From Pseudomonadota bacterium (GTDB lineage: Bacteria > Bdellovibrionota_F > JAHFAK01 > JBDREC01): 64,000 nucleotides of DNA. Below the pieces are notes generated by a model that had not been told where the DNA came from, made no database searches, and worked only from the letters and a program-made list of their open reading frames with translations. Positions 5,177 to 13,357 of this stretch are shown here, in pieces. Location of the stretch: contig JBDREC010000102.1 in assembly GCA_043820105.1 (NCBI GenBank), positions 826 through 64,825 of the forward strand, read 5' to 3'. The translations under genes were made by a program, and so were the position numbers. Position 1 is the stretch's first letter. Each line of letters begins with the position of its first letter.

Positions 5177-7483
5177 CTATTTTATTAATTCCATTGCAGG
5201 ATCTCCGAGGAGTGAAAAAGCTTGTACAAAGTCCTCTGATGCTCCAAAATCCTCATATGCAGAAGTAATTGCATAGCTTGTCGCAGCGCCAATATGAGAA
5301 TATCCTTGAATAAAGAAAGCATCAAAAAGAGCATATGCCATTTTTTCATGATTTTCTAAAACATCCATGCTTGTGGATGAAAAAGTTGCAATAGCTCCTT
5401 TGTTTTCTTGCAGCATAAAGGCTTCAGCCAGGCATTCTCTGTAAGCCGTTGAATCAGGTGATGTAAGAACTAAGGGGAAAAAGCCACTTAAGCAGGAAAA
5501 AAAGGTAAGAAAAGTAGGTTTTGATTCATTTTCTACTTCAGCGACTTGTGCAACACTTTCAATCATTTGATTAGGCAGGGCTATAGCGCAACCATGACCA
5601 ATATAGTTAGTGATTAGAGTACCTGTGGCCATGTTTTCATACCAATCACTTCTTAAATCAGCTCCCACATCGCCATAGTCCTCTAAGTATAAGGTGTGAA
5701 CAGTATAATCCTCTGGAACATAATCACTAATAATCGTATTAGAAACATCTTCAAATCTATCTTCATCATCAGTAATAAACTGCATAGTTTGATTCCACTC
5801 AAAGGGTTGATTTAAATAATAATTAAGAATCTTATTAACTTGAATATCAACTTCTCCTGTATTCTGGGCTGTAAGCCTTCCAATGTGCATGTCTGGAAGG
5901 TTATCTGAGCCTGACACAGAAACAAACCAATTATCACTTGGTGTAGGGCCTAGGTCTGAAGTATAATAAAAATGTGTAGGAATAAAATTTTGGTTGCCTG
6001 CTGCATAATTATCTTTATGATCATAAGTTGCGTCTCCAACAAGCAGTACATATTGGGGAGCAGGCGATTGCCATGAAGAATAAGCATATTCTAAAAAGTC
6101 TTTTATTGCTTGAGGGCTCTCAATTCCATAGTTGAAATCATTATAAACTTCAGAAATTTTAACTGCTTTTACATTTAATCCCATTGTTGTGTGATAGTAG
6201 GCCAGGGGCTCAATGTTGTCATAAAAATCATCATAGACTATCATAATATAATCAGCCTGATTATCTAATCCTATGAGATTTGTTGTAAAAACAGTTTCAA
6301 TGTTGTCTACTGCCTGGGCTTTTGAGATGGCCTGAACAATAAAACTTGAGCTTGCATCTGTGCTTAATTCAAAAGTAACAGAATAAGTGTCAGCTTCATT
6401 GTTAATAGTAGGGTTAATAATTTTTTTCGTGTTTGCTTGATCAGTAATTTCAAAGATTTCTATGTCACTTGTTGAAAAGGAAGAAATTTGTAAATGATAA
6501 TTACCAGGTTCACTTAAAGTAAACTCAAGATAATCATCAATTGCAATGAATTGCTGATAATAACTTATTTCAAAATAATTCATATAAAGATAATCAACCG
6601 ATGCTCCAGTATCTCCAACTGATTCAAGTTTTAAGGAATTAGTTCCATTCATTAAAATAGAACTATCAAAAGTAGTTTCATGTGTAAATTCAATGGTAGA
6701 ATCCCAGGTCTGATCATCAATTAAAATGTCATTGATATATATTTTTGTATGATGATCTGGATTTTCAGTGTCACTTGATTTTCCTTTTAATAAAACCTCA
6801 AGGCTAGCGGTTTCAACAGTTGTGTCGATATTATTAATAGTGAATTCATAGTTTACTGAAGTTGATCCCTCATTGGCGTTTAAATAATCATCCCAAAACC
6901 AATGGTCAGCGCCTTCCTGGCTAGTATAAAACCTATAATATTTGCTGTTCTCTTCTGAGTGAATTGTTTTTAGATGATTGTTTAGAAGCGTGTAAGAATC
7001 AGTATTACTAGCATCAACTTCTTCGATGCTATTTCCACCGGTCCCTATTGTTAGTCTGTAAATATTTGTTTCTGTATATTCATATTCAGCAGCATTTTCA
7101 TCAATTTGCTTTGCATAAAATTTTATATAATCTTCTGGATCAAAGAAACCATTGGCATTTGCATCATAAACAAAAAGAGGAATAATATTTCCCCTGTTTT
7201 TCAATTGAACCCTTGAAAGGTCAGCTGAATCAGGATCAACACCACTTGCAAGCAGACCTGAATAAGTTACCTTATATATGCCACTAGTATTTATTGGAAA
7301 CTGTAAATAAATATTGAAACTAGCATTTCCAATTTCTGTTTCCCCTTCAGTAATTTCTTCTAAATCTAAAACAGCAGCAGTAGGATCCTCAGTAAGTATT
7401 TCTGTAATGTTATTTGAATTTTCAGTAGTACAAGCTAAAAAAACAGGTATTAATATTATAAAAAAATAATTTTTAATATTCAT
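5177..7483 (-). CDS. C25-family (gingipain/PorU-like) cysteine peptidase, lipoprotein
   Basis: Lipobox VFLA|C; GIYKVTY N-terminal motif; ADYIMI, YVLLVGDATYD, SDNWF, PDMHIGRL, catalytic YIGHG and FFSC, C-terminal LLGDP. Confidence 0.9.
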   Translation of the reverse strand: MNIKNYFFIILIPVFLACTTENSNNITEILTEDPTAAVLDLEEITEGETEIGNASFNIYLQFPINTSGIYKVTYSGLLASGVDPDSADLSRVQLKNRGNIIPLFVYDANANGFFDPEDYIKFYAKQIDENAAEYEYTETNIYRLTIGTGGNSIEEVDASNTDSYTLLNNHLKTIHSEENSKYYRFYTSQEGADHWFWDDYLNANEGSTSVNYEFTINNIDTTVETASLEVLLKGKSSDTENPDHHTKIYINDILIDDQTWDSTIEFTHETTFDSSILMNGTNSLKLESVGDTGASVDYLYMNYFEISYYQQFIAIDDYLEFTLSEPGNYHLQISSFSTSDIEIFEITDQANTKKIINPTINNEADTYSVTFELSTDASSSFIVQAISKAQAVDNIETVFTTNLIGLDNQADYIMIVYDDFYDNIEPLAYYHTTMGLNVKAVKISEVYNDFNYGIESPQAIKDFLEYAYSSWQSPAPQYVLLVGDATYDHKDNYAAGNQNFIPTHFYYTSDLGPTPSDNWFVSVSGSDNLPDMHIGRLTAQNTGEVDIQVNKILNYYLNQPFEWNQTMQFITDDEDRFEDVSNTIISDYVPEDYTVHTLYLEDYGDVGADLRSDWYENMATGTLITNYIGHGCAIALPNQMIESVAQVAEVENESKPTFLTFFSCLSGFFPLVLTSPDSTAYRECLAEAFMLQENKGAIATFSSTSMDVLENHEKMAYALFDAFFIQGYSHIGAATSYAITSAYEDFGASEDFVQAFSLLGDPAMELIK

Positions 7484-7488
7484 TCCGC

Positions 7489-7593
7489 TTAATTCTTAAT
7501 TCTTAATTCTTAATTCTTACCACTTATCACTTACCACTTACCACTTACCACTTATCACTTACCACTTACCACTTACCACTTACCACTTACCAC
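7489..7593. repeat. Compound heptamer microsatellite: (TTAATTC)x4 then (TTAYCAC)x11
   Basis: Counted directly: 15 in-phase 7-mers, filling nearly the whole gap between the kinase stop and the C25 peptidase start. Confidence 0.95.
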
Positions 7594-8657
7594 TATACCA
7601 ATCCCTGAATAATATCAAGCGTCAAATCTAGCTTTCCAACCTGTAAAGTAAAGGACTGTGAATTTTTTGTGATATTTAATAGTTGGTCAAATAGCATTAA
7701 ATTTTTTGCTTTCTTTGATGTGGAAAGGTTTTCAATTGAACTTTTGTCTGTTTTTAAGTTAGGAATAAGCATTAAAGCAGCATCAATTGGAGAAATTGAA
7801 TTTATTTGAGGTTGAGCCTTGAAATCAGGGTTTAATCTTTCCTTTTTAAAACAGGTCCAATATTCATTTTCGTATTTATTTATTAAATCTTTTATTTCTT
7901 TTGTTTTACCAATATTTCTGGGATAAGAAAAATCGAAATTCAAATTTGTATTATCGCAAGGCTTTATATCTATATCCTTATATATAGTCTTTATCTTGGA
8001 TATGAAAGAGCTGGAATCTTTTTTAAATTTAATCTTAAAACAATAAGACGTATCTTTGGTGTTTTTTGCTGTAAGAAAGATTAGCTTATCTAGATGGCAA
8101 GGTTTGCTGCTTACAAGAAGGTTGTTTTTAAGAGGGTCAAAGGTTTCTTTCGTTAAGATAGCATTAGTTTTTTTAAGACCCTTTTGAATCACTTTTAAGC
8201 TTCTGGGAAAGGGATGGACAAGTTTTGTTTTTATGTTAAAGGGACAAAAGTCATCAGATAAGAAAGAAAAATTATTTTTTAGCAATTCCATTGTTATTGT
8301 GGTTTTGCCGATACCAGGGTGTCCTATAATAGCTAAAGTTGTATTGTCTTTTTGAATTACTGCCGCGTGTATAATGATAAAATTTTCAAATAATTCAAAT
8401 AGCTTTTTTAGTACATACTGATAAGAAAAAGAAGGCTTATTGGGATGTTCTTCTAAGGCAACGGTCTTGTTTTTTGTTTCAATTTTTGCCTCAGATTTCG
8501 GATCATTTATTGAAATTTTAAACTCATGGATCTTAGCAGGGCTAAAGCTTTTTACTTCAAACAGATGATAATCTTTATGGAAGCTACTAAGAAAATCATT
8601 AGAGTCAGATACAAGCTTAAGGTTTACATCAAGAATTTTATATTTTTTAATAATCAT
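7593..8657 (-). CDS. HPr kinase-related P-loop protein (putative RiPP-tailoring kinase)
   Basis: IHAAVI, Walker A GHPGIGKTT, FLSDD, PFPRSL motifs of HprK-related proteins. Confidence 0.8.
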   Translation of the reverse strand: MIIKKYKILDVNLKLVSDSNDFLSSFHKDYHLFEVKSFSPAKIHEFKISINDPKSEAKIETKNKTVALEEHPNKPSFSYQYVLKKLFELFENFIIIHAAVIQKDNTTLAIIGHPGIGKTTITMELLKNNFSFLSDDFCPFNIKTKLVHPFPRSLKVIQKGLKKTNAILTKETFDPLKNNLLVSSKPCHLDKLIFLTAKNTKDTSYCFKIKFKKDSSSFISKIKTIYKDIDIKPCDNTNLNFDFSYPRNIGKTKEIKDLINKYENEYWTCFKKERLNPDFKAQPQINSISPIDAALMLIPNLKTDKSSIENLSTSKKAKNLMLFDQLLNITKNSQSFTLQVGKLDLTLDIIQGLV

Positions 8658-8659
8658 TT

Positions 8660-9988
8660 TTATTCTTCCAAGATGCTATCAAATGCTTTTTTGTAAGCAA
8701 TTTTTTTGTAAGCACAAAATTTATCTTCAGCCCAAACTGTTTTAGAAGCTTCAAGTGCCTCACCCATGCATCCTGCCTGGCAAAGATTTTGCCAATGACA
8801 GGCCTGGCATTTTTTAATTTTTTTAGTTCTGTTTTGTAAGGCAAAGATTGATTTGTTCATTACTTCAGAATTATTGGTTTTGCTTAAGGTATCTTTATGT
8901 ATATTGCCAAGTAAAAAATCTTTATTCATCAATAAAACACAAGGGTAAACATCACCATTAATATCAATAACAAGTTTTTTTCCAAGAGGACACCAAAAAG
9001 CATCATTGCTTATTTGAGGTGTTATTTTAAATAGCAAACCACTTATTCCACAAGAGATTTTAATAGTTTTTTTCTGTGTTTTATTCAAACCTTCAACTAA
9101 ATTAAAAAAACTGTGATAATCTGAAGTTGTTAAAAAGTTTTTTTCCTTGCAAGCTTTACCTACGACCCTCAATGGCAGGAATCTTAATTGAGGAATTTTA
9201 TTTTTTTCTACGAAATTAATTATTCTAAGTAAATCATCAATATTGTCTTTCATGACTGTAGTTGCAATGGTTAAATTCTTAAGCATTCCAATTTCTTTCA
9301 AAATATCAATTGCTTTGATTACTTTTTTATAGCTTCCTTTTGATCTTATTTTATCATGGATTTTTTCATTTGATCCATCAAGGCTTATTTGAATGGAAAT
9401 ATTATGTTTTTTGAAGAAAGTTACCCACTTTTTATCTAATAAAGTTGCATTTGTTAAAACTTGAATATTTAGTTTTTCAGAAGAATGCTTAATGATTTCT
9501 TGAAGTTTTGGATGCAAAAGAGGTTCGCCTCCACTTAAGGTCAAGTTTTTACCACCACCTTTAATGAACTCATTTAAAGCTTTTTTAATTACATGCAAAG
9601 GCATTTCATCCTTAACTAAAGGAGACGATGACAAGTAACACTGTTTGCACGCCAAATTACATTTTCGGGTTATATGCAAATAAAGATCACTAAAAAAAGG
9701 TTTTCTAATGTAATTATTGGTACTTTGGAAAAAGCCACTTTTTGTTAATTCACACTGAATATTATCAATATATTCCAATGCTTTGCTTTGTGAAAAATTT
9801 AATTTTTTACATAATGTTCCAACTATATCTTGCTTATCTATATAATTTAAAAGACCTTTTATAATTATAAGTCCAGATTCATTAACCTTAATCCACATGG
9901 GTTTAGAAGATAGTAAAACAATTGAATTTAATTTTGATATAATTTTATTTTCGTAATGATAAAAAGAGCTTGTTTTTGATGAAGGCAT
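8660..9988 (-). CDS. Radical SAM/SPASM peptide maturase with an N-terminal PqqD/RRE-like domain
   Basis: CNLACKQC (CxxxCxxC), GGEPLLHP, QISLDG; SPASM C..GDVYPC...CQAC..QNLCQAGC...C; about 90-aa N-terminal extension resembling PqqD. Confidence 0.92.
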   Translation of the reverse strand: MPSSKTSSFYHYENKIISKLNSIVLLSSKPMWIKVNESGLIIIKGLLNYIDKQDIVGTLCKKLNFSQSKALEYIDNIQCELTKSGFFQSTNNYIRKPFFSDLYLHITRKCNLACKQCYLSSSPLVKDEMPLHVIKKALNEFIKGGGKNLTLSGGEPLLHPKLQEIIKHSSEKLNIQVLTNATLLDKKWVTFFKKHNISIQISLDGSNEKIHDKIRSKGSYKKVIKAIDILKEIGMLKNLTIATTVMKDNIDDLLRIINFVEKNKIPQLRFLPLRVVGKACKEKNFLTTSDYHSFFNLVEGLNKTQKKTIKISCGISGLLFKITPQISNDAFWCPLGKKLVIDINGDVYPCVLLMNKDFLLGNIHKDTLSKTNNSEVMNKSIFALQNRTKKIKKCQACHWQNLCQAGCMGEALEASKTVWAEDKFCAYKKIAYKKAFDSILEE

Positions 9989-10002
9989 ACTTTAAATAAT
10001 TG

Positions 10003-10143
10003 TTATGCTTCTGGAGAAGGAGAACATGCAAAAGCAGGTCCAAATCTATCTTCAATTTCACTGTCAGAAAAGATTTTCAAAACAGGTGCTTCATATTTTT
10101 TCTTTTTTTCATTTCTTTTTTCTTTTTTCACTATTATCTCCAT
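10003..10143 (-). CDS. Putative RiPP precursor peptide (46 aa from ATG 10143, or 42 aa from GTG 10131 after GGAG)
   Basis: MEIIVKKEKRNEKKKKYEAPVLKIFSDSEIEDRFGPAFACSPSPEA: basic N-terminus, YxxPxL RRE-binding motif, ends 14 nt before the rSAM start. Confidence 0.8.
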   Translation of the reverse strand: MEIIVKKEKRNEKKKKYEAPVLKIFSDSEIEDRFGPAFACSPSPEA

Positions 10144-10385
10144 TGTCTCAGTTTTGAAAAATAAAGTAATATATATCTTTGTTTTAAAGATGGATATAAA
10201 AAACAAAAAGAAAGATTATGCAAGAGAAAAAAGGAGGTTTAAAAAAAGTGAAATTTTAGAATAATTGCTTGATTGTTGGTGATAATTCACAAGAATGGAA
10301 TTTGGAAAGTAATACCAAAATATTTATCTTTACTTCTTTTCTTATTTCTTTGAATTATTATTTTTCATTTTATAAATAGATATTT

Positions 10386-12044
10386 ATGTTAAATCAAATT
10401 TACCATAACTGGCAGCTTTTTTTAAGATCTCTAAGTTTTTTAAGACCATATTGGAAACAGTTGCTGGGACTGATTTTACTTTCTCAAATTGTCGTGCTTT
10501 TAGGCTTAATAAGTCCTTATTTAACAAAAATCTTAATTGATGATGCTTATGTGAACAAAGATTTCTCACTGTTTTCGATCATAATTTTAACTATTGCCTC
10601 AATTATACTTGTAAGTGGAGTGCTTGGCGGCATTGTTGAATATTTTAATGGAAAAATAAACCAACGAGTTTATCTAGATATTAACAACAAAATCGTTAAT
10701 ATTCTCATGTCTTTAAGCCTTGATTATCATAAGAGTACTCAAGCTGGCAAAAATCTTTATAAATTATACTTTGATACAGAAGCCTGCGCTAGAATGTTAA
10801 CTGATTATGTAATTCAAGCCTTGAGGCTATTTTTAACTTTTTTAATTACTTTTATTATTGTCTTTTATTTAAATGCAAAAATTGCACTTTTAACATTTTT
10901 CTTGGGAATATTTTTTTATTTTCATGCACTATACTTTTCTAAAAAAAGAAGATCCGTTTTTAGGCAAATAATCTCACAAAGACAGAGTATATTTATAAGG
11001 TTAAAAGATGCTTTTGCTAAAATTTACATGATAAAAGCCTCAGCAAAAGAAGAAGAAGAAAAGAAAATGCATCTTGAGAAACTTAATAAAACAATAGAAA
11101 TAGCATTTGTAGACCTAAGGCTCAAGGTGATTTCATTTTTTTCAGCCCAGGTTATGAAAAGCGCCGTTATTGGTGTTGTTATTTTTTATGGTGGATATTT
11201 GATTTTTCAAAATGAGCTTAGTCTTGGTGTTTTAACTTCAATAATTGTTTATCTGGGAAGACTAGCTGGTTTTAATAGAGAAGTAGGACAACTTGTTCAA
11301 TGGCTAGGAGTTTCCCTGATTTCCTGCGAAAGGCTTGATCTTGTTTTAAAAGAAGAAAAAAGCAGCAACACAAAAACAGGAAAAAATAAAAAAACACCCA
11401 AAACTTTTTGCCCACATATCAAAATAGAAAATCTGTGTTTTTCTTATGATAATGAAAAACAAATTATTTCCAATCTCAATGGAGAAATTAAACCTTTTAA
11501 ATGGACCTTGTTCAGGGGAGATTCTGGATGTGGAAAATCAACAGTGATAAATATGATTTTGGGATTTTACAAACCTCAACAAGGAAAAATCTATCTTGAT
11601 AATGAAAACATTGAAACCCTTGATTCTAATTTTATAAAAGAAAACATTGCCCTGGTTCCACAAGAGCCCAATTTATGGTTTGGATCAATAAAATATAATG
11701 TTACATATTTTAATAGTAAGGCTAAAGATAGTGATCTTCAAAAGATTTTAAAAATAACTGAGCTTGAAAACTTTATTACAAGCCTTGAAAATGGCATAGA
11801 AACCGAAATTGGCGAAGATGCAGGCAAGGTATCAGAAGGCCAAAAACAAAGAATTTCACTTGCCAGAGCTTTATTAAAGAATCCAAAACTTCTTGTTCTT
11901 GACGAAGCATTATCCTTTGTTGACGATAAAACTTCATATAAAATATTAAAAAACATTAAAGACAATTATCCCAATATTACTATCTTATTTATTTCACATA
12001 AAAAAGCTGATCTTGAATTTGCTGATAAGATTGTTGAGTTTTAG
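10386..12044 (+). CDS. ABC exporter (fused TMD and NBD) without a C39 peptidase domain
   Basis: Multiple TM helices; Walker A GDSGCGKST, signature variant VSEGQKQR, Walker B LLVLDEA, ISH switch. Confidence 0.93.
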   Translation: MLNQIYHNWQLFLRSLSFLRPYWKQLLGLILLSQIVVLLGLISPYLTKILIDDAYVNKDFSLFSIIILTIASIILVSGVLGGIVEYFNGKINQRVYLDINNKIVNILMSLSLDYHKSTQAGKNLYKLYFDTEACARMLTDYVIQALRLFLTFLITFIIVFYLNAKIALLTFFLGIFFYFHALYFSKKRRSVFRQIISQRQSIFIRLKDAFAKIYMIKASAKEEEEKKMHLEKLNKTIEIAFVDLRLKVISFFSAQVMKSAVIGVVIFYGGYLIFQNELSLGVLTSIIVYLGRLAGFNREVGQLVQWLGVSLISCERLDLVLKEEKSSNTKTGKNKKTPKTFCPHIKIENLCFSYDNEKQIISNLNGEIKPFKWTLFRGDSGCGKSTVINMILGFYKPQQGKIYLDNENIETLDSNFIKENIALVPQEPNLWFGSIKYNVTYFNSKAKDSDLQKILKITELENFITSLENGIETEIGEDAGKVSEGQKQRISLARALLKNPKLLVLDEALSFVDDKTSYKILKNIKDNYPNITILFISHKKADLEFADKIVEF

Positions 12045-12106
12045 CTTCTTGACAATCTATCTTTGATTAATATTCTTGTTTTATATTTTTTTCTAGGAGG
12101 GGTCAT

Positions 12107-13357
12107 ATGACAAAATCACAGCATTTGTGTTTTTTTAAACACATTCTTTTCTTATCATTTATTATAGTTTTATTTGCAAAACCAATCATTGCCACGAATG
12201 CTATCGATTTTAAAGTTTATCAAATTTATGCTTCAGATAAACATGAAAGATCTTTAATCGCAAGCTTTGGAGCTGATATTGTTGAAGTTAACGATAATTA
12301 TGTAATTGCCTTTGTTCGAAAAGATCAAGAAACTTTGTTTGATGCTTTTAATGTCAACTATGTTGATATTACCGAAGACTTTATTGATTATTTTGAAGAC
12401 TTTCCAGCTGATGATAATGCTTACCATTCTGTACATGAAGTAAATGAGTTTTTACACGAAACAGCAGCGCTTAATCCTGAAATTGCAAAAGTTTTTAGTA
12501 TAGGAAAATCAATAGAAGGAAATGATATTCTAGGAATAAAAATTAGTGATAATGTTAATGATGAAGAATTTGATGAGCCTGCTGCATTGTTTCTTGGCAC
12601 CACGCACGCTCGCGAACATCTAAGCACTGAAGTGCCACTTTTCCTTGCTCGATTTTTGGTTGAGGGTTATTCTAAGCGCGATTTTCACCTTAAAGAATTA
12701 ATAGATACACGTGAAATATTTATTTTTCCAGTCCTTAATCCAGATGGTAAAATGTATGATATTGGTGAAGCAGGATTTTCAGGAACTAGAAATTACCAGT
12801 TTTGGAGAAAGAACAGAAGAAAAAACTCAGATGCTAGTCTTGGTGTTGATTTAAATAGAAACTATGATTCAAATTGGGGTGGTCAAGGATCTAGTTCAAG
12901 CCCCAGCTCAGACACTTATCATGGAGAGGCAGCATTTTCAGAGCCTGAAACAGCAGCAATTAAAGACTTTATTTTAGCTCAAAAAAACATTTCAGTTTGT
13001 CTTTCTTATCATACTTTTAGCAAGTTGATTTTATATCCCTGGGGCACAAGCAATGATCCCATTGCAGATGAGAAAGATTTAAATGCCTTTAAAAAAATAG
13101 CAGCTCAAATGGCCCAGTGGACAGGTTATAGACCTGAGCAAGCTTCTGATTTATATATTACTTCAGGTGCAATGATTGATTGGCTATATGCAGACCTCGG
13201 AATCTTTGGTTTTACCTTTGAGCTAGATCCAGCTTCAATGTGGAATGGTGGTTTTTATCCTGGAGATGAAATTATAGAAGAAGTGTTTTTAAAAAATATT
13301 AATCCTGCCCTTTATTTAATTTATTTAGCAGATGATCCAAGAAAGGCTGGAGACTAA
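12107..13357 (+). CDS. Secreted M14 zinc carboxypeptidase (carboxypeptidase T-like)
   Basis: Signal peptide; HARE, RKNR, GVDLNRNY, FSEPET, SYHTFS, FTFEL. Confidence 0.93.
   Translation: MTKSQHLCFFKHILFLSFIIVLFAKPIIATNAIDFKVYQIYASDKHERSLIASFGADIVEVNDNYVIAFVRKDQETLFDAFNVNYVDITEDFIDYFEDFPADDNAYHSVHEVNEFLHETAALNPEIAKVFSIGKSIEGNDILGIKISDNVNDEEFDEPAALFLGTTHAREHLSTEVPLFLARFLVEGYSKRDFHLKELIDTREIFIFPVLNPDGKMYDIGEAGFSGTRNYQFWRKNRRKNSDASLGVDLNRNYDSNWGGQGSSSSPSSDTYHGEAAFSEPETAAIKDFILAQKNISVCLSYHTFSKLILYPWGTSNDPIADEKDLNAFKKIAAQMAQWTGYRPEQASDLYITSGAMIDWLYADLGIFGFTFELDPASMWNGGFYPGDEIIEEVFLKNINPALYLIYLADDPRKAGD

What the first reader, a model, noticed from the sequence alone, without database searches (positions are those of the whole stretch)
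5177..13357. Apparently complete RiPP cluster: precursor, RRE-rSAM/SPASM, HPr-like kinase, gingipain-family lipoprotein protease, exporter and carboxypeptidase
Seen: four co-oriented genes, precursor (10143-10003), rSAM/SPASM (14-nt gap), kinase (2-nt gap) and C25 peptidase, plus a divergent ABC exporter followed by an M14 carboxypeptidase. Established: YxxPxL leader motifs bind PqqD/RRE domains; SPASM rSAMs make peptide cross-links; HPr-kinase-like enzymes phosphorylate Ser in paeninodin-type lasso precursors. The SynChlorMet cassette also pairs SPASM rSAMs with PqqD-like proteins. Inference: there is no lasso cyclase and no C39 or B2 peptidase, so the product could be a short peptide that is both cross-linked and phosphorylated, then exported and matured outside the cytoplasm. 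I do not know a characterised RiPP class with this enzyme combination.
Basis: partly seen in the sequence, partly recalled or inferred. Interest (0 to 1): 0.9.

Follow-up and report, generated by a model that had tools for sequence, protein, structure and literature searches.

The report
Peptide-modifying gene cluster, new family
This is a real gene cluster for a small modified peptide: it belongs to a large, widespread and uncharacterised family that adds a radical-SAM enzyme and a gingipain-type protease to a recently described phosphorylated-peptide pathway.

Summary

**Conserved core.** The 46-aa ORF, the RRE-rSAM/SPASM enzyme, the HprK-like kinase and the C25 peptidase recur in that order in about 30 loci from several phyla.
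- The small ORF belongs to a family of 410 unannotated peptides. The leader reads Y-x-P-P-x-I...G-P-A and the usual core is x-A-C-S-P-x-P-C.
- Two natural rSAM-kinase fusions exist.
- The one clade without the rSAM also lacks the core Cys.

**Missing or unsupported parts.**
[quoted passage not shown] The window lacks it.
- The M14 carboxypeptidase appears in 0 of 29 other loci.
- A full-length exporter lies beside only one other locus.

**Closest known systems.**
- The linear polyphosphorylated peptides (LPP) of Bacillota, described in 2026. [quoted passage not shown]
- The untested SynChlorMet cassette.

Neither has a C25 peptidase, and the window's proteins fail every curated family cut-off.

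**Likely product.** A short exported peptide, rSAM-modified at Cys40 and phosphorylated on a neighbouring Ser. The chemistry is inferred, not shown.

**Verdict.** A new variant of a known kind, worth experimental follow-up.

The parts
10003..10143 (-). Precursor peptide gene, 46 aa plus stop: MEIIVKKEKRNEKKKKYEAPVLKIFSDSEIEDRFGPAFACSPSPEA
   Evidence: ORF; sequence checked. Homologous small ORFs lie directly upstream of the rSAM in 9 of 11 assessable rSAM-seeded loci and in 12 of 19 kinase-seeded loci. 410 database peptides match the profile at E<=0.01.
10078..10095 (-). Leader motif Y17-E-A-P20-V-L22, the predicted RRE-binding element
   Evidence: Y17 and P20 are invariant in 10 of 10 aligned precursors. 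Y is present in 118 and P in 119 of the 119 database precursors that carry the motif. The same [Y/W]xxPx[L/V/I] motif is bound by lasso and LPP RREs (PMC13381572, sections 6 and 12 read).
10033..10041 (-). G35-P36-A37, invariant end-of-leader motif and predicted leader cleavage site (small residues at -3 and -1)
   Evidence: G and A are invariant and P nearly so. Counts are G 119, P 118 and A 119 of 119. The cleavage site itself is inferred, not shown.
10006..10032 (-). Predicted core F38-A-C40-S41-P-S-P-E-A46
   Evidence: Family core consensus is [QMH]-A-C-S-P-x-P-C-x-x-x-P. 112 of 119 have two Cys; the window has one, with Glu where the second Cys usually sits.
8660..9988 (-). RRE-radical SAM/SPASM peptide maturase, 442 aa
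   Evidence: Pfam Radical_SAM and SPASM. All NCBIfam hits are below cut-off, the best being anSME at 146 bits against 349. 266 homologs at E<=1e-20. Model pLDDT is 92. Foldseek top hits are CteB 5wgg at 5.8e-22, then SuiB and anSME.
9740..9964 (-). N-terminal RRE (PqqD-like winged helix), residues 9-83 of the rSAM
   Evidence: The model shows strands 9-12, 21-26 and 32-36, then helices 37-47, 52-63 and 67-83. Family profile positions 14-83 match the lasso RRE TfuB1 (6jx3_B) at 5.6e-7. The window's own N-terminus alone gives no PqqD Pfam hit.
9638..9661 (-). C110-x3-C114-x2-C117, the radical SAM cluster motif
   Evidence: Invariant in 35 of 35 aligned homologs; positions checked.
8714..8992 (-). 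SPASM domain with seven Cys (C333, C350, C394, C397, C403, C407, C425)
   Evidence: All seven are invariant in alignment A1. Pfam SPASM covers residues 336-398.
7593..8657 (-). HprK-like (PEPCK-fold) P-loop kinase, 354 aa; predicted precursor Ser/Thr kinase
   Evidence: HprK_rel_A 52 bits (cut-off 200) and Hpr_kinase_C 20.7 bits. Model pLDDT is 92. Foldseek finds ATP-PEPCK at 4e-6 and HprK/P at 1e-4. 571 cluster representatives match at E<=1e-30. Two natural fusions to PqqD-rSAM-SPASM exist, P0146 and P0211.
8298..8324 (-). P-loop G112-H-P-G-I-G-K-T-T120 of the kinase
   Evidence: G117, K118 and T120 are invariant in 52 sequences. The region aligns to the HprK/P P-loop and the following ADD motif of 1ko7 and 3tqf.
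5177..7483 (-). C25 (gingipain/PorU-like) cysteine peptidase, predicted lipoprotein, 768 aa
   Evidence: Peptidase_C25 at 1.9e-75 over residues 412-766. PorU model NF033707 gives 234 bits against a 420 cut-off. Lipobox at C18, catalytic H630 in YIGHG and C664 in SCLSG. A C25 gene follows the kinase in 8 of 8 and 17 of 18 assessable loci. The window's copy lacks the Propeptide_C25 N-domain seen in relatives.
10386..12044 (+). MsbA-type ABC exporter (permease + ATPase), divergent from the precursor; probable exporter of the peptide
   Evidence: ABC_membrane plus ABC_tran. No peptidase domain is present: 552 aa, and the C39-containing models match only from about position 150 onwards. A full-length homolog in the same divergent position occurs in 1 of 29 other loci, L224. 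An MsbA-like exporter is a core LPP gene (PMC13381572, section 6). Its membership of the cluster is inferred.
12107..13357 (+).
   Evidence: Peptidase_M14 at 5.7e-69. 0 hits in 29 other loci scanned with its sequence.

Best explanation
This is a RiPP biosynthetic cluster of a large, uncharacterised family. The family is built on the same scaffold as the linear polyphosphorylated peptides (LPP) and the SynChlorMet cassette. That scaffold is a YxxPx[LIV] leader, a PqqD-type RRE, an HprK-like kinase and, in most members, an SpI-like leader peptidase.

Proposed steps for the window (all inferred unless marked):
1. The 46-aa precursor is made. Its leader motif Y17..P20.L22 is bound by the RRE at the N-terminus of the rSAM/SPASM enzyme.
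2. The rSAM enzyme modifies the core at Cys40. The most likely reaction is a sacti- or ranthi-type thioether. The chemistry is not shown.
3. The HprK-like kinase phosphorylates a core Ser/Thr, with Ser41 as the best candidate. This follows LppK, which polyphosphorylates core Ser3.
4. The adjacent MsbA-type ABC transporter exports the peptide.
5. The leader is removed after the invariant G-P-A. In relatives the SpI-like peptidase would do this. In the window, which lacks one nearby, the C25 lipoprotein would do it outside the cytoplasm, or would trim or transfer the peptide further.

Shown here: the genes, their folds and motifs, the conserved synteny, the precursor family, the rSAM-kinase fusions, and the joint absence of the rSAM and the core Cys in one clade.
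For: **Conserved gene order.** Among 12 rSAM-seeded loci, counting only those with enough flank, the kinase follows in 9 of 9, a C25 gene in 8 of 8, an SpI-like gene in 6 of 6 and a precursor precedes in 9 of 11. Among 20 loci seeded independently on the kinase profile, the counts are rSAM 15 of 19, C25 17 of 18, SpI-like 12 of 13 and precursor 12 of 19.

**Precursor family.** 410 peptides match at E<=0.01, all unnamed or called hypothetical, with no Pfam family. 119 of the best 120 carry the motif.

**Fusions.** Two natural PqqD-rSAM-SPASM-kinase fusion proteins exist.

**RRE.** Model and profile match to TfuB1. The discrete PqqD proteins of related loci match LppB (9X8Z) best, at 7.5e-8.

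**Kinase.** PEPCK/HprK fold and invariant HprK motifs.

**Cys and rSAM.** All 19 precursors next to an rSAM have Cys after G-P-A. The 3 precursors in rSAM-less loci have none.

**LPP experiments.** HprK-like LppK phosphorylates core Ser3, and SpI-like LppS removes the leader with help from the RRE (PMC13381572, sections 7 and 11 read).

**C25.** The catalytic His and Cys are conserved, and the proteins carry signal peptides or a lipobox.
Against: - No chemistry, binding or expression was observed.
- The complex prediction could not be run.
- The three rSAM-less, Cys-less loci form one clade in the kinase tree (support 97/85). The covariation is therefore a single evolutionary event.
- No precursor was found within the fetched flanks of 7 loci that have rSAM, kinase and C25: L172, L215-L218, L220 and L226.
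- The window's own N-terminus gives no PqqD Pfam hit.
- The window lacks the SpI-like peptidase and the discrete PqqD that most relatives have. Its core is atypical, with one Cys and nine residues.
- Every curated family model scores below cut-off, so no function transfers by equivalog.
- The precursor has no export signal, and exporters are not conserved across loci. How the peptide would reach a secreted C25 in most relatives is unexplained.
- The best-scoring curated rSAM model differs between members: anSME for the window, MftC for L171 and P0146.
Confidence: 0.6

Rival explanations
1. The rSAM works like an anaerobic sulfatase-maturating enzyme. It oxidises Cys40 to formylglycine, giving an aldehyde-bearing peptide that could, for example, inhibit or regulate the co-encoded cysteine peptidase. 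No cross-link would form.
For: anSME is the best NCBIfam hit of the window's rSAM, at 146 bits and 1.5e-42. It is also the best solved-structure sequence match of the family profile, at 2.3e-37. The core C-S-P-x-P resembles the sulfatase C-x-P-x-R motif; that motif is recalled, not taken from a call.
Against: - The score is far below the anSME cut-off of 349 bits.
- anSME has no RRE, while this enzyme does. The best fold match is the sactisynthase CteB.
- The residue aligned with anSME Asp277 (Y-P-C-D) is Val in the family consensus and in the window (Y-P-C-V). The catalytic role of Asp277 is recalled.
- The Arg of the sulfatase motif is absent.
- Other members score best against MftC.
Confidence: 0.08
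2. The kinase activates Ser41 for elimination to dehydroalanine. In typical members the downstream Cys (S-P-x-P-C, i to i+4) then adds to it and forms a lanthionine-like ring. The rSAM would do something else to the first Cys.
For: The S-x3-C spacing is present in 89 of 119 cores, where Cys occupies position 8. Kinase-initiated dehydration is established for class III, IV and V lanthipeptides (recalled).
Against: - No lyase or cyclase homolog is present in the conserved set.
- The window's core has Glu, not Cys, at that position.
- The rSAM-less clade keeps the kinase while its cores have no Cys at all.
- Characterised HprK-like RiPP kinases leave stable (poly)phosphate (PMC13381572, section 7).
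Confidence: 0.06
3. The C25 peptidase is not a maturation enzyme of the peptide. It is a co-regulated partner or target, and leader removal is done only by an SpI-like peptidase. In the window that would be the single genomic copy on another contig.
For: - SpI-like genes are nearly universal in relatives, and the homologous LppS is a proven leader peptidase (PMC13381572).
- C25 proteins are secreted, whereas the precursor has no signal peptide.
- The own genome has one archaeal-type SPase I, at G000:C10:128565-129197.
Against: - C25 is as tightly linked as the kinase, in 17 of 18 and 8 of 8 assessable loci. It stays in the rSAM-less clade and in the window, where no SpI-like gene is nearby.
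- The C10 SPase sits in a different operon, next to another rSAM.
Confidence: 0.15
4. The arrangement is a chance neighbourhood: the small ORF is not a gene, and the enzymes act on unrelated substrates.
For: There are no expression data, no RNA holder is listed, and the Shine-Dalgarno sequence is weak.
Against: The small ORF is conserved at protein level across phyla with invariant motifs. Synteny is conserved in about 30 loci. Enzyme fusions exist.
Confidence: 0.02

Closest known systems
Linear polyphosphorylated peptides (LPP) of Bacillota: LppA/K/B/S/D/N (Popov et al., Nat Commun 2026, PMC13381572; outline and sections 6, 7, 11, 12 and 35 read)
   Same: - Precursor leader with a YxxPx[VLI] RRE-binding motif.
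- A PqqD-type RRE. The discrete PqqD proteins of related loci match LppB (9X8Z) best among solved structures.
- An HprK-like kinase.
- An archaeal-type SPase-I-like peptidase, in relatives though not in the window.
- An MsbA-type exporter.
- NTP_transf_5 in some relatives: L091, L224 and L232.
- Patchy phyletic distribution.
   Different: - An rSAM/SPASM maturase fused to the RRE is present.
- A PorU-like C25 peptidase is present. The LPP paper's main text has no occurrence of 'radical SAM' or 'C25'.
- The core is short, conserved and Cys-containing, where LPP cores are long and variable.
- The hosts are Gram-negative-type lineages such as Thermodesulfobacteriota, Acidobacteriota and candidate phyla. 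LPP is described as restricted to Bacillota.
- The leader continues differently, as ...T-Y-T-S-E-E-I-L-E-Q-I-G-P-A.
- The window itself has no SpI-like gene, no discrete RRE and no NTP transferase at the locus.
SynChlorMet cassette (ScmC/D/E/F; NCBIfam TIGR04249-04251), defined bioinformatically; I know of no experimental characterisation (recalled)
   Same: - PqqD, rSAM/SPASM and an HprK-related protein occur together. Homologs of the window's kinase carry PF27840 'ScmC'.
- Of the 8 true ScmC loci I fetched, 7 also hold an SpI-like gene and 6 an ABC hit.
- In 4 of the 8 I found small ORFs with YxxP[KE]L leaders and Cys-rich cores.
   Different: - SynChlorMet has two rSAMs without a fused RRE, where this cluster has one RRE-rSAM.
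- ScmC is about 300 aa, and the window's kinase does not match TIGR04249. Relatives score 12-21 bits against a cut-off of 125.
- The window's rSAM scores 91 bits (ScmE) and 83 bits (ScmF) against cut-offs of 400.
- None of the 8 ScmC loci has a C25 gene.
- The 17 ScmC genomes and the 15 genomes holding this kinase family do not overlap within the same 401-genome sample.
Paeninodin-type phosphorylated lasso peptides (HprK-like kinase PadeK; recalled, and as cited in PMC13381572)
   Same: An HprK-like kinase acts on a RiPP precursor that has a [Y/W]xxP leader and a PqqD-type RRE.
   Different: Genes 5177-13357 include no lasso cyclase and no B2 peptidase. An rSAM and a C25 peptidase are present instead.
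RRE-containing rSAM/SPASM thioether synthases (CteB 5WGG, SkfB 6EFN; PapB family)
   Same: - The domain order RRE, rSAM, seven-Cys SPASM.
- CteB is the best Foldseek hit.
- SkfB and CteB are sequence matches at 8e-32 and 4e-31.
- The PapB model is the second-best NCBIfam hit.
- The substrate contains Cys.
   Different: - All scores are below family cut-offs: PapB 137 against 340, StsB 126 against 625, AlbA 92 against 850.
- Known sacti- and ranthipeptide clusters have no HprK-like kinase or C25 peptidase, as far as my searches show.
PorU, the C25-family sortase of the type IX secretion system
   Same: PorU is the best NCBIfam model for the C25 protein (NF033707). The catalytic His/Cys motifs are present, and the protein is extracytoplasmic.
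   Different: - It scores 234 bits against a cut-off of 420.
[quoted passage not shown]
- Its relatives sit in genomes titled Acidobacteriota, Thermodesulfobacteriota and Deltaproteobacteria. That these lineages lack type IX secretion is recalled and was not tested.
- A search for T9SS C-terminal domains in the window's own genome found none, but the control also failed.

Membership tests
LPP (linear polyphosphorylated peptide) BGC | HprK-like kinase (LppK) | tested here: met
   PEPCK/HprK fold and invariant HprK motifs. Direct homology to LppK itself was not tested, because no LppK sequence was available.
LPP (linear polyphosphorylated peptide) BGC | SpI-like (archaeal-type signal peptidase I) leader peptidase in the cluster | tested here: not met
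   No SpI-like hit in window 1-24000. The only genomic copy is on contig C10. It is met in relatives, in 6 of 6 and 12 of 13 assessable loci.
LPP (linear polyphosphorylated peptide) BGC | Discrete RRE protein (LppB) | tested here: not met
   The RRE is fused to the rSAM. No discrete PqqD lies at the locus. Four discrete PqqD genes lie elsewhere in the genome, three of them next to other HprK-like genes (C89, C4, C76) and one next to another rSAM on C10.
LPP (linear polyphosphorylated peptide) BGC | Leader with YxxPx[V/L/I] RRE-binding motif | tested here: met
   Y17-E-A-P20-V-L22; conserved across the family.
LPP (linear polyphosphorylated peptide) BGC | Phosphorylation as the only primary modification (linear product) | tested here: not met
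   An rSAM/SPASM maturase is an integral, sometimes fused, part of the pathway. The phosphorylation itself cannot be tested here.
SynChlorMet cassette | ScmC (TIGR04249) at or above 125 bits | tested here: not met
   No TIGR04249 hit for the window's protein even at E<=10. Relatives score 12-21 bits.
SynChlorMet cassette | Two rSAM/SPASM proteins, ScmE and ScmF, each with a 400-bit cut-off | tested here: not met
   There is one rSAM, scoring 90.7 bits (ScmE) and 83.3 bits (ScmF).
rSAM/SPASM peptide maturase (generic) | CX3CX2C motif, seven-Cys SPASM motif and an RRE for leader binding | tested here: met
   C110, C114 and C117 plus seven invariant SPASM Cys. The RRE fold appears in the model and in the profile match to TfuB1.
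Sactipeptide / ranthipeptide | Cys sulfur to carbon thioether installed by the rSAM | not testable with these tools
   Only indirect support: Cys is present in 19 of 19 precursors next to an rSAM and absent in 3 of 3 without one, which is one clade. The PapB, StsB and AlbA models all score below cut-off.
Anaerobic sulfatase-maturating enzyme | TIGR03942 at or above 349 bits; catalytic Asp after Y-P-C (role recalled); no RRE | tested here: not met
   146 bits. Val stands at the aligned position. An RRE is present.
HPr kinase/phosphorylase and HprK-related kinase A | TIGR00679 at or above 240 bits, or TIGR04352 at or above 200 bits | tested here: not met
   25.1 and 52.2 bits, covering only the P-loop region at residues 61-156. 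The fold-level resemblance is met.
T9SS sortase PorU | NF033707 at or above 420 bits, and a T9SS with CTD-bearing cargo in the genome | tested here: not met
   234 bits. The CTD search found nothing, but its control also found nothing, so that part is inconclusive.
Lasso peptide | Asn-synthetase-like cyclase and a B2 transglutaminase-like peptidase | tested here: not met
   None of the six genes in 5177-13357 has such a domain.

The most novel reading that the evidence does not exclude
The PorU-like C25 enzyme is not a simple leader peptidase. It would be a sortase-type transpeptidase, as PorU is, that takes the exported, rSAM-modified and phosphorylated peptide and either ligates it covalently to a cell-surface glycan or lipid, or cyclises it. 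The family would then be the first RiPP class matured by a clan-CD transpeptidase in bacteria.

Two observations fit this reading. The short core is unusually conserved across phyla. Some loci (L171, L172) lie next to polysaccharide genes. Both point to a structural, cofactor-like or surface role rather than an antibiotic under diversifying selection.
Probability: 0.15. Interest if true: 0.9.

Novelty: new variant of a known kind. Interest (0 to 1): 0.72.

Why it matters
**A large unannotated family.** The precursor profile finds 410 peptides. The kinase profile finds 571 clusters (50% identity) at E<=1e-30. No Pfam or NCBIfam model names the precursor, and none of my literature searches found a description.

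**It links three systems.** The experimentally opened LPP pathway (Bacillota, 2026), Haft's long-uncharacterised SynChlorMet cassette and rSAM/SPASM chemistry would share one scaffold: a YxxP leader, an RRE, an HprK-like kinase and an SpI-like peptidase. That would carry the scaffold well beyond Bacillota.

**It adds a new enzyme.** A gingipain/PorU-type peptidase is not on the list of RiPP-processing enzymes in anything I read.

**It offers a direct experiment.** The strictly conserved core (A-C-S-P-x-P-C) and the joint absence of rSAM and Cys in one clade give a clear test of which residue each enzyme modifies.

Tried and rejected
- **Complex prediction.** Complex prediction for the rSAM (A1) with the precursor (A3) was unreachable four times and then declared unavailable. 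There is no result either way.
- **PqqD on the window's own N-terminus.** A Pfam scan of the first 100 residues found no PqqD hit. The RRE call therefore rests on the model and the family profile.
- **Expression.** No RNA holder is listed.
- **Type IX secretion.** The search for T9SS C-terminal domains in the window's own genome found nothing, but the control genomes also did not ring. Inconclusive.
- **Formylglycine idea.** It came from the anSME best hit and the C-S-P-x-P motif. It was weakened by the Val at the position aligned with anSME Asp277 and by the RRE/CteB-like architecture.
- **M14 carboxypeptidase.** Rejected as a cluster member: 0 of 29 other loci.
- **Missing precursors.** In L172, L215-L218, L220 and L226 a relaxed profile search of all six frames found nothing credible.
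- **Single-sequence kinase search.** The word-index search with the kinase alone found only 4 proteins. The profile search was needed.
- **LPP supplements.** The LPP paper's supplementary data (SpI homolog lists and domain co-occurrence) could not be seen. They might show rSAM or C25 neighbours that the main text does not mention.
- **Dropped rows.** L091:6800-9379 was left out of the C25 profile as a divergent repeat protein. L013, L016 and L094 were counted as not assessable for most features because of contig ends or frameshifted pieces.
- **Report submission.** It was corrected and resent.

Full report
**Observation.**
- Precursor: 10003-10143 (-).
- rSAM/SPASM: 8660-9988 (-), 14 nt downstream of the precursor stop.
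- Kinase-like gene: 7593-8657 (-), 2 nt further.
- C25 peptidase: 5177-7483 (-), 109 nt further.
- Divergent ABC exporter: 10386-12044 (+).
- M14 carboxypeptidase: 12107-13357 (+).

Pfam and NCBIfam confirm the domain calls. No curated NCBIfam model reaches its cut-off for any of them.
- rSAM: best hit anSME, 146 bits against 349.
- Kinase: HprK_rel_A, 52 bits against 200.
- C25: PorU, 234 bits against 420.
- Precursor: no hit at all.

GC content is uniform across the region. The window lies in a 3.8-Mb, 113-contig genome of a sparsely sampled lineage. Among 60 'relatives' only two share its order and one its class.

**The individual proteins.**
- *rSAM.* It has C110-x3-C114-x2-C117 and the seven-Cys SPASM signature, all invariant in 35 homologs. 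An AlphaFold model built on that alignment (pLDDT 92) shows three strands then three helices at residues 9-83, the RRE topology. Its best Foldseek hit is the RRE-containing sactisynthase CteB at 5.8e-22, followed by SuiB and anSME. The family profile matches anSME, SkfB and CteB by sequence. Its N-terminal positions 14-83 match the lasso RRE TfuB1 at 5.6e-7. PF05402 (PqqD) is precomputed on 52 of the 77 best full-length homologs. The window's own N-terminus alone gives no PqqD hit.
- *Kinase-like protein.* The model (pLDDT 92) hits ATP-dependent PEPCK and then HprK/P. H97, G117, K118, T120, S134, D135 and R152 are invariant in 52 family members. They align with the HprK/P 'H-G...G-x-S-G-x-G-K-S...A-D-D' region.
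- *C25 protein.* It has a lipobox at Cys18 and the catalytic motifs Y-I-G-H630-G and S-C664-L-S-G. It lacks the Propeptide_C25 domain that its longer relatives of 900-1200 aa carry.

**Comparative genomics, seeded on the rSAM.** The rSAM has 266 homologs at E<=1e-20. About 77 of them are full-length relatives at 30-43% identity. Scans of genome and metagenome contigs and of relatives gave 12 close loci. Counting only loci with enough flank:
- the kinase follows the rSAM in 9 of 9
- a C25 gene follows in 8 of 8
- a homolog of the small ORF precedes the rSAM in 9 of 11

A fifth gene family is present in 6 of 6 assessable loci but absent from the window. Its best NCBIfam model is archaeal-type signal peptidase I (TIGR02228), with SipW also hit.

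**Comparative genomics, seeded independently on the kinase.** A profile of the kinase finds 571 cluster representatives at E<=1e-30 among 1.84 billion. Two of them, P0146 (846 aa) and P0211 (850 aa), are natural fusions of PqqD, rSAM, SPASM and kinase.

In whole-genome samples the kinase occurs as follows:
- 3 of 5 genomes of one small phylum
- 7 of 7 genomes of another small phylum
- 2 of 69 genomes of the class of a SEEP-SRB2 genome
- 15 of 401 genomes of that genome's phylum

The distribution is therefore patchy.

I fetched 20 such loci and scanned them with my own profiles. Among assessable loci:
- rSAM adjacent: 15 of 19
- C25: 17 of 18
- SpI-like: 12 of 13
- precursor: 12 of 19

14 loci in all also carry a discrete PqqD protein. 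The canonical order is (PqqD)-precursor-RRE/rSAM-kinase-C25-SpI.

The M14 sequence hit nothing in the 29 other loci. A full-length ABC homolog in the same divergent position occurs only in L224, and ATPase-only ABC hits occur in five more.

**The precursor family.** A profile of ten precursors finds 410 small proteins at E<=0.01. All are unnamed or called 'hypothetical' and none has a Pfam family. Of the best 120, 119 carry the motif.
- Leader: Y-x-P-P-K-I-x-T-Y-T-S-E-E-I-L-E-Q-I-G-P-A.
- Usual core: [Q/M/H]-A-C-S-P-x-P-C-x-x-x-P, typically 11-12 residues.
- Two Cys are present in 112 of 119.

The window's peptide is MEIIVKKEKRNEKKKKYEAPVLKIFSDSEIEDRFGPAFACSPSPEA. It keeps Y17, P20, I30, G35, A37 and C40. 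Its nine-residue core has a single Cys, with Glu where the second Cys usually stands.

Both leader and core are strongly conserved across phyla. This is unlike most antibiotic RiPPs and closer to cofactor-type RiPPs; that comparison is my inference. G-P-A has small residues at -3 and -1, which fits a type-I signal-peptidase-like cleavage. The cleavage site is also an inference.

**Which enzyme acts where.** All 19 precursors that lie next to an rSAM have Cys after G-P-A. In L093 the Cys sits further downstream. The three loci that lack an rSAM but keep PqqD or precursor, kinase and C25 have cores without any Cys: L221 QTITSDAGV, L222 QTYNSFMEDELG and L231 HTVTSGGPRGVEFD.

In a kinase tree these three form one clade with 97/85 support. 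This is therefore one co-loss, not three. It fits the rSAM acting on the Cys but is weak statistically.

A Ser/Thr at core position 4 or 5 is kept in all of them, and the kinase is always present. That makes this residue (Ser41 in the window) the best candidate phospho-acceptor.

**Comparison with known systems.**
- *LPP.* A 2026 paper (PMC13381572; outline and sections 6, 7, 11, 12 and 35 read) describes linear polyphosphorylated peptides of Bacillota. The core genes are an SpI-like peptidase LppS, a discrete RRE LppB, an HprK-like kinase LppK, an NTP transferase LppN and an MsbA-like exporter LppD. The leader motif is YxxPxVLxHQxIxFETxxS. LppK polyphosphorylates core Ser3. LppS, presented with the leader by LppB, removes the leader. 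The discrete PqqD proteins of the loci studied here match LppB (9X8Z) best among all solved structures at 7.5e-8, ahead of TbiB1 and TfuB1. NTP_transf_5 genes flank L091, L224 and L232.
- *SynChlorMet.* The kinase family's nearest newer Pfam family is PF27840 'ScmC'. The window's protein does not hit TIGR04249, and relatives score 12-21 bits against 125. True ScmC loci occur in 17 of 401 genomes, none of which is among the 15 genomes with this kinase family. I fetched 8 of them. Most hold two rSAMs, ScmC, an SpI-like gene and an ABC or NTP_transf_5 gene. None holds a C25.

The three systems thus share one scaffold. The family studied here is defined by a single RRE-fused rSAM, its own kinase subfamily, the G-P-A/A-C-S-P precursor and a PorU-like C25 peptidase.

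Six full-text searches found no description of that combination. The LPP paper's main text does not contain 'radical SAM' or 'C25'.

**Mechanism proposed for the window.** Every step below is inferred except the presence of the parts.
1. The RRE of the rSAM binds Y17..P20.L22.
2. The rSAM modifies Cys40, most likely forming a thioether.
3. The HprK-like kinase phosphorylates Ser41 or a neighbouring Ser.
4. The MsbA-type transporter exports the peptide.
5. The leader is removed after G-P-A.

The window lacks the SpI-like gene. The genome's only copy lies on contig C10, in another operon next to a different rSAM. The C25 lipoprotein is therefore the obvious candidate for extracytoplasmic processing.

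Why a PorU-type enzyme is so tightly linked in all relatives, even those that have an SpI-like peptidase, is unexplained. A sortase-like transfer or cyclisation is the boldest reading the data allow.

**Weak points.**
- No binding, chemistry or expression data exist.
- Seven loci with the enzymes show no precursor within the fetched flanks.
- The export route in most relatives is unknown.
- The best curated rSAM model differs between members.
- The anSME-like formylglycine alternative is weakened, not excluded. Val stands at the position aligned with anSME Asp277, and the role of that Asp is recalled.

**Verdict.** The cluster is an atypical member of a large, undescribed RiPP family: a new variant combining LPP/SynChlorMet-type machinery with an RRE-rSAM and a C25 peptidase.

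Noticed in passing
L255:12818-12970(+), L256:10730-10939(-), L260:10933-11148(+), L262:5771-6034(-): Four of the 8 true SynChlorMet (ScmC, TIGR04249) loci I fetched contain small ORFs with a K/E-rich N-terminus, a Y-x-x-P-[K/E]-L leader motif and multi-Cys, Gly/Thr/Ala-rich cores. These are candidate precursors for a cassette whose precursor was, as I recall, listed as unidentified. Seven of the 8 loci also carry an SpI-like peptidase gene.
   Followed up: partly
G000:C10:128565-130280 (L239:8566-10280): The own genome's only archaeal-type signal peptidase I homolog (210 aa) lies directly upstream of another rSAM/SPASM gene (356 aa). Two ParA/ArsA-like P-loop ATPase genes precede the pair and two secreted proteins follow it. 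This may be another peptide- or protein-maturation operon.
   Followed up: partly
G000:C4:44625-46787; G000:C89:27255-28331; G000:C76:84177-86232: There are three more PqqD plus HprK-like gene pairs in the same genome. The one on C4 has an NTP_transf_5 gene alongside, which is the HPr-rel-A/LPP-like triad. The genome also holds 13 rSAM/SPASM-like matches, so it is rich in RRE-dependent systems.
   Followed up: no
P0146 (846 aa), P0211 (850 aa): These are natural single-chain fusions of PqqD, radical SAM, SPASM and the HprK-like kinase.
   Followed up: partly
L225:7359-12019: A Thermodesulfobacteriota-phylum locus holds a PqqD-fusion protein, the kinase and an SpI-like gene, but no rSAM and no C25. 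On the opposite strand lies a 153-aa ORF that starts with an F-x-x-P-x-I...G-P leader-like motif. This is an LPP-like arrangement outside Bacillota.
   Followed up: no
L171:6805-15229; L172:14210-15202: Some family loci are flanked by cell-surface polysaccharide-type genes: VanZ, GT1/GT4 and GT2 glycosyltransferases, a DegT aminotransferase, a GNAT, and an alkaline-phosphatase-superfamily phosphodiesterase next to a second rSAM. This recalls how LPP clusters are embedded in capsule loci.
   Followed up: no
L172:3189-9853; L092:10518-15149: Some loci carry two tandem C25-family genes. In L092 the gene upstream of the C25 clustered with the C25 family but has no Pfam hit.
   Followed up: no
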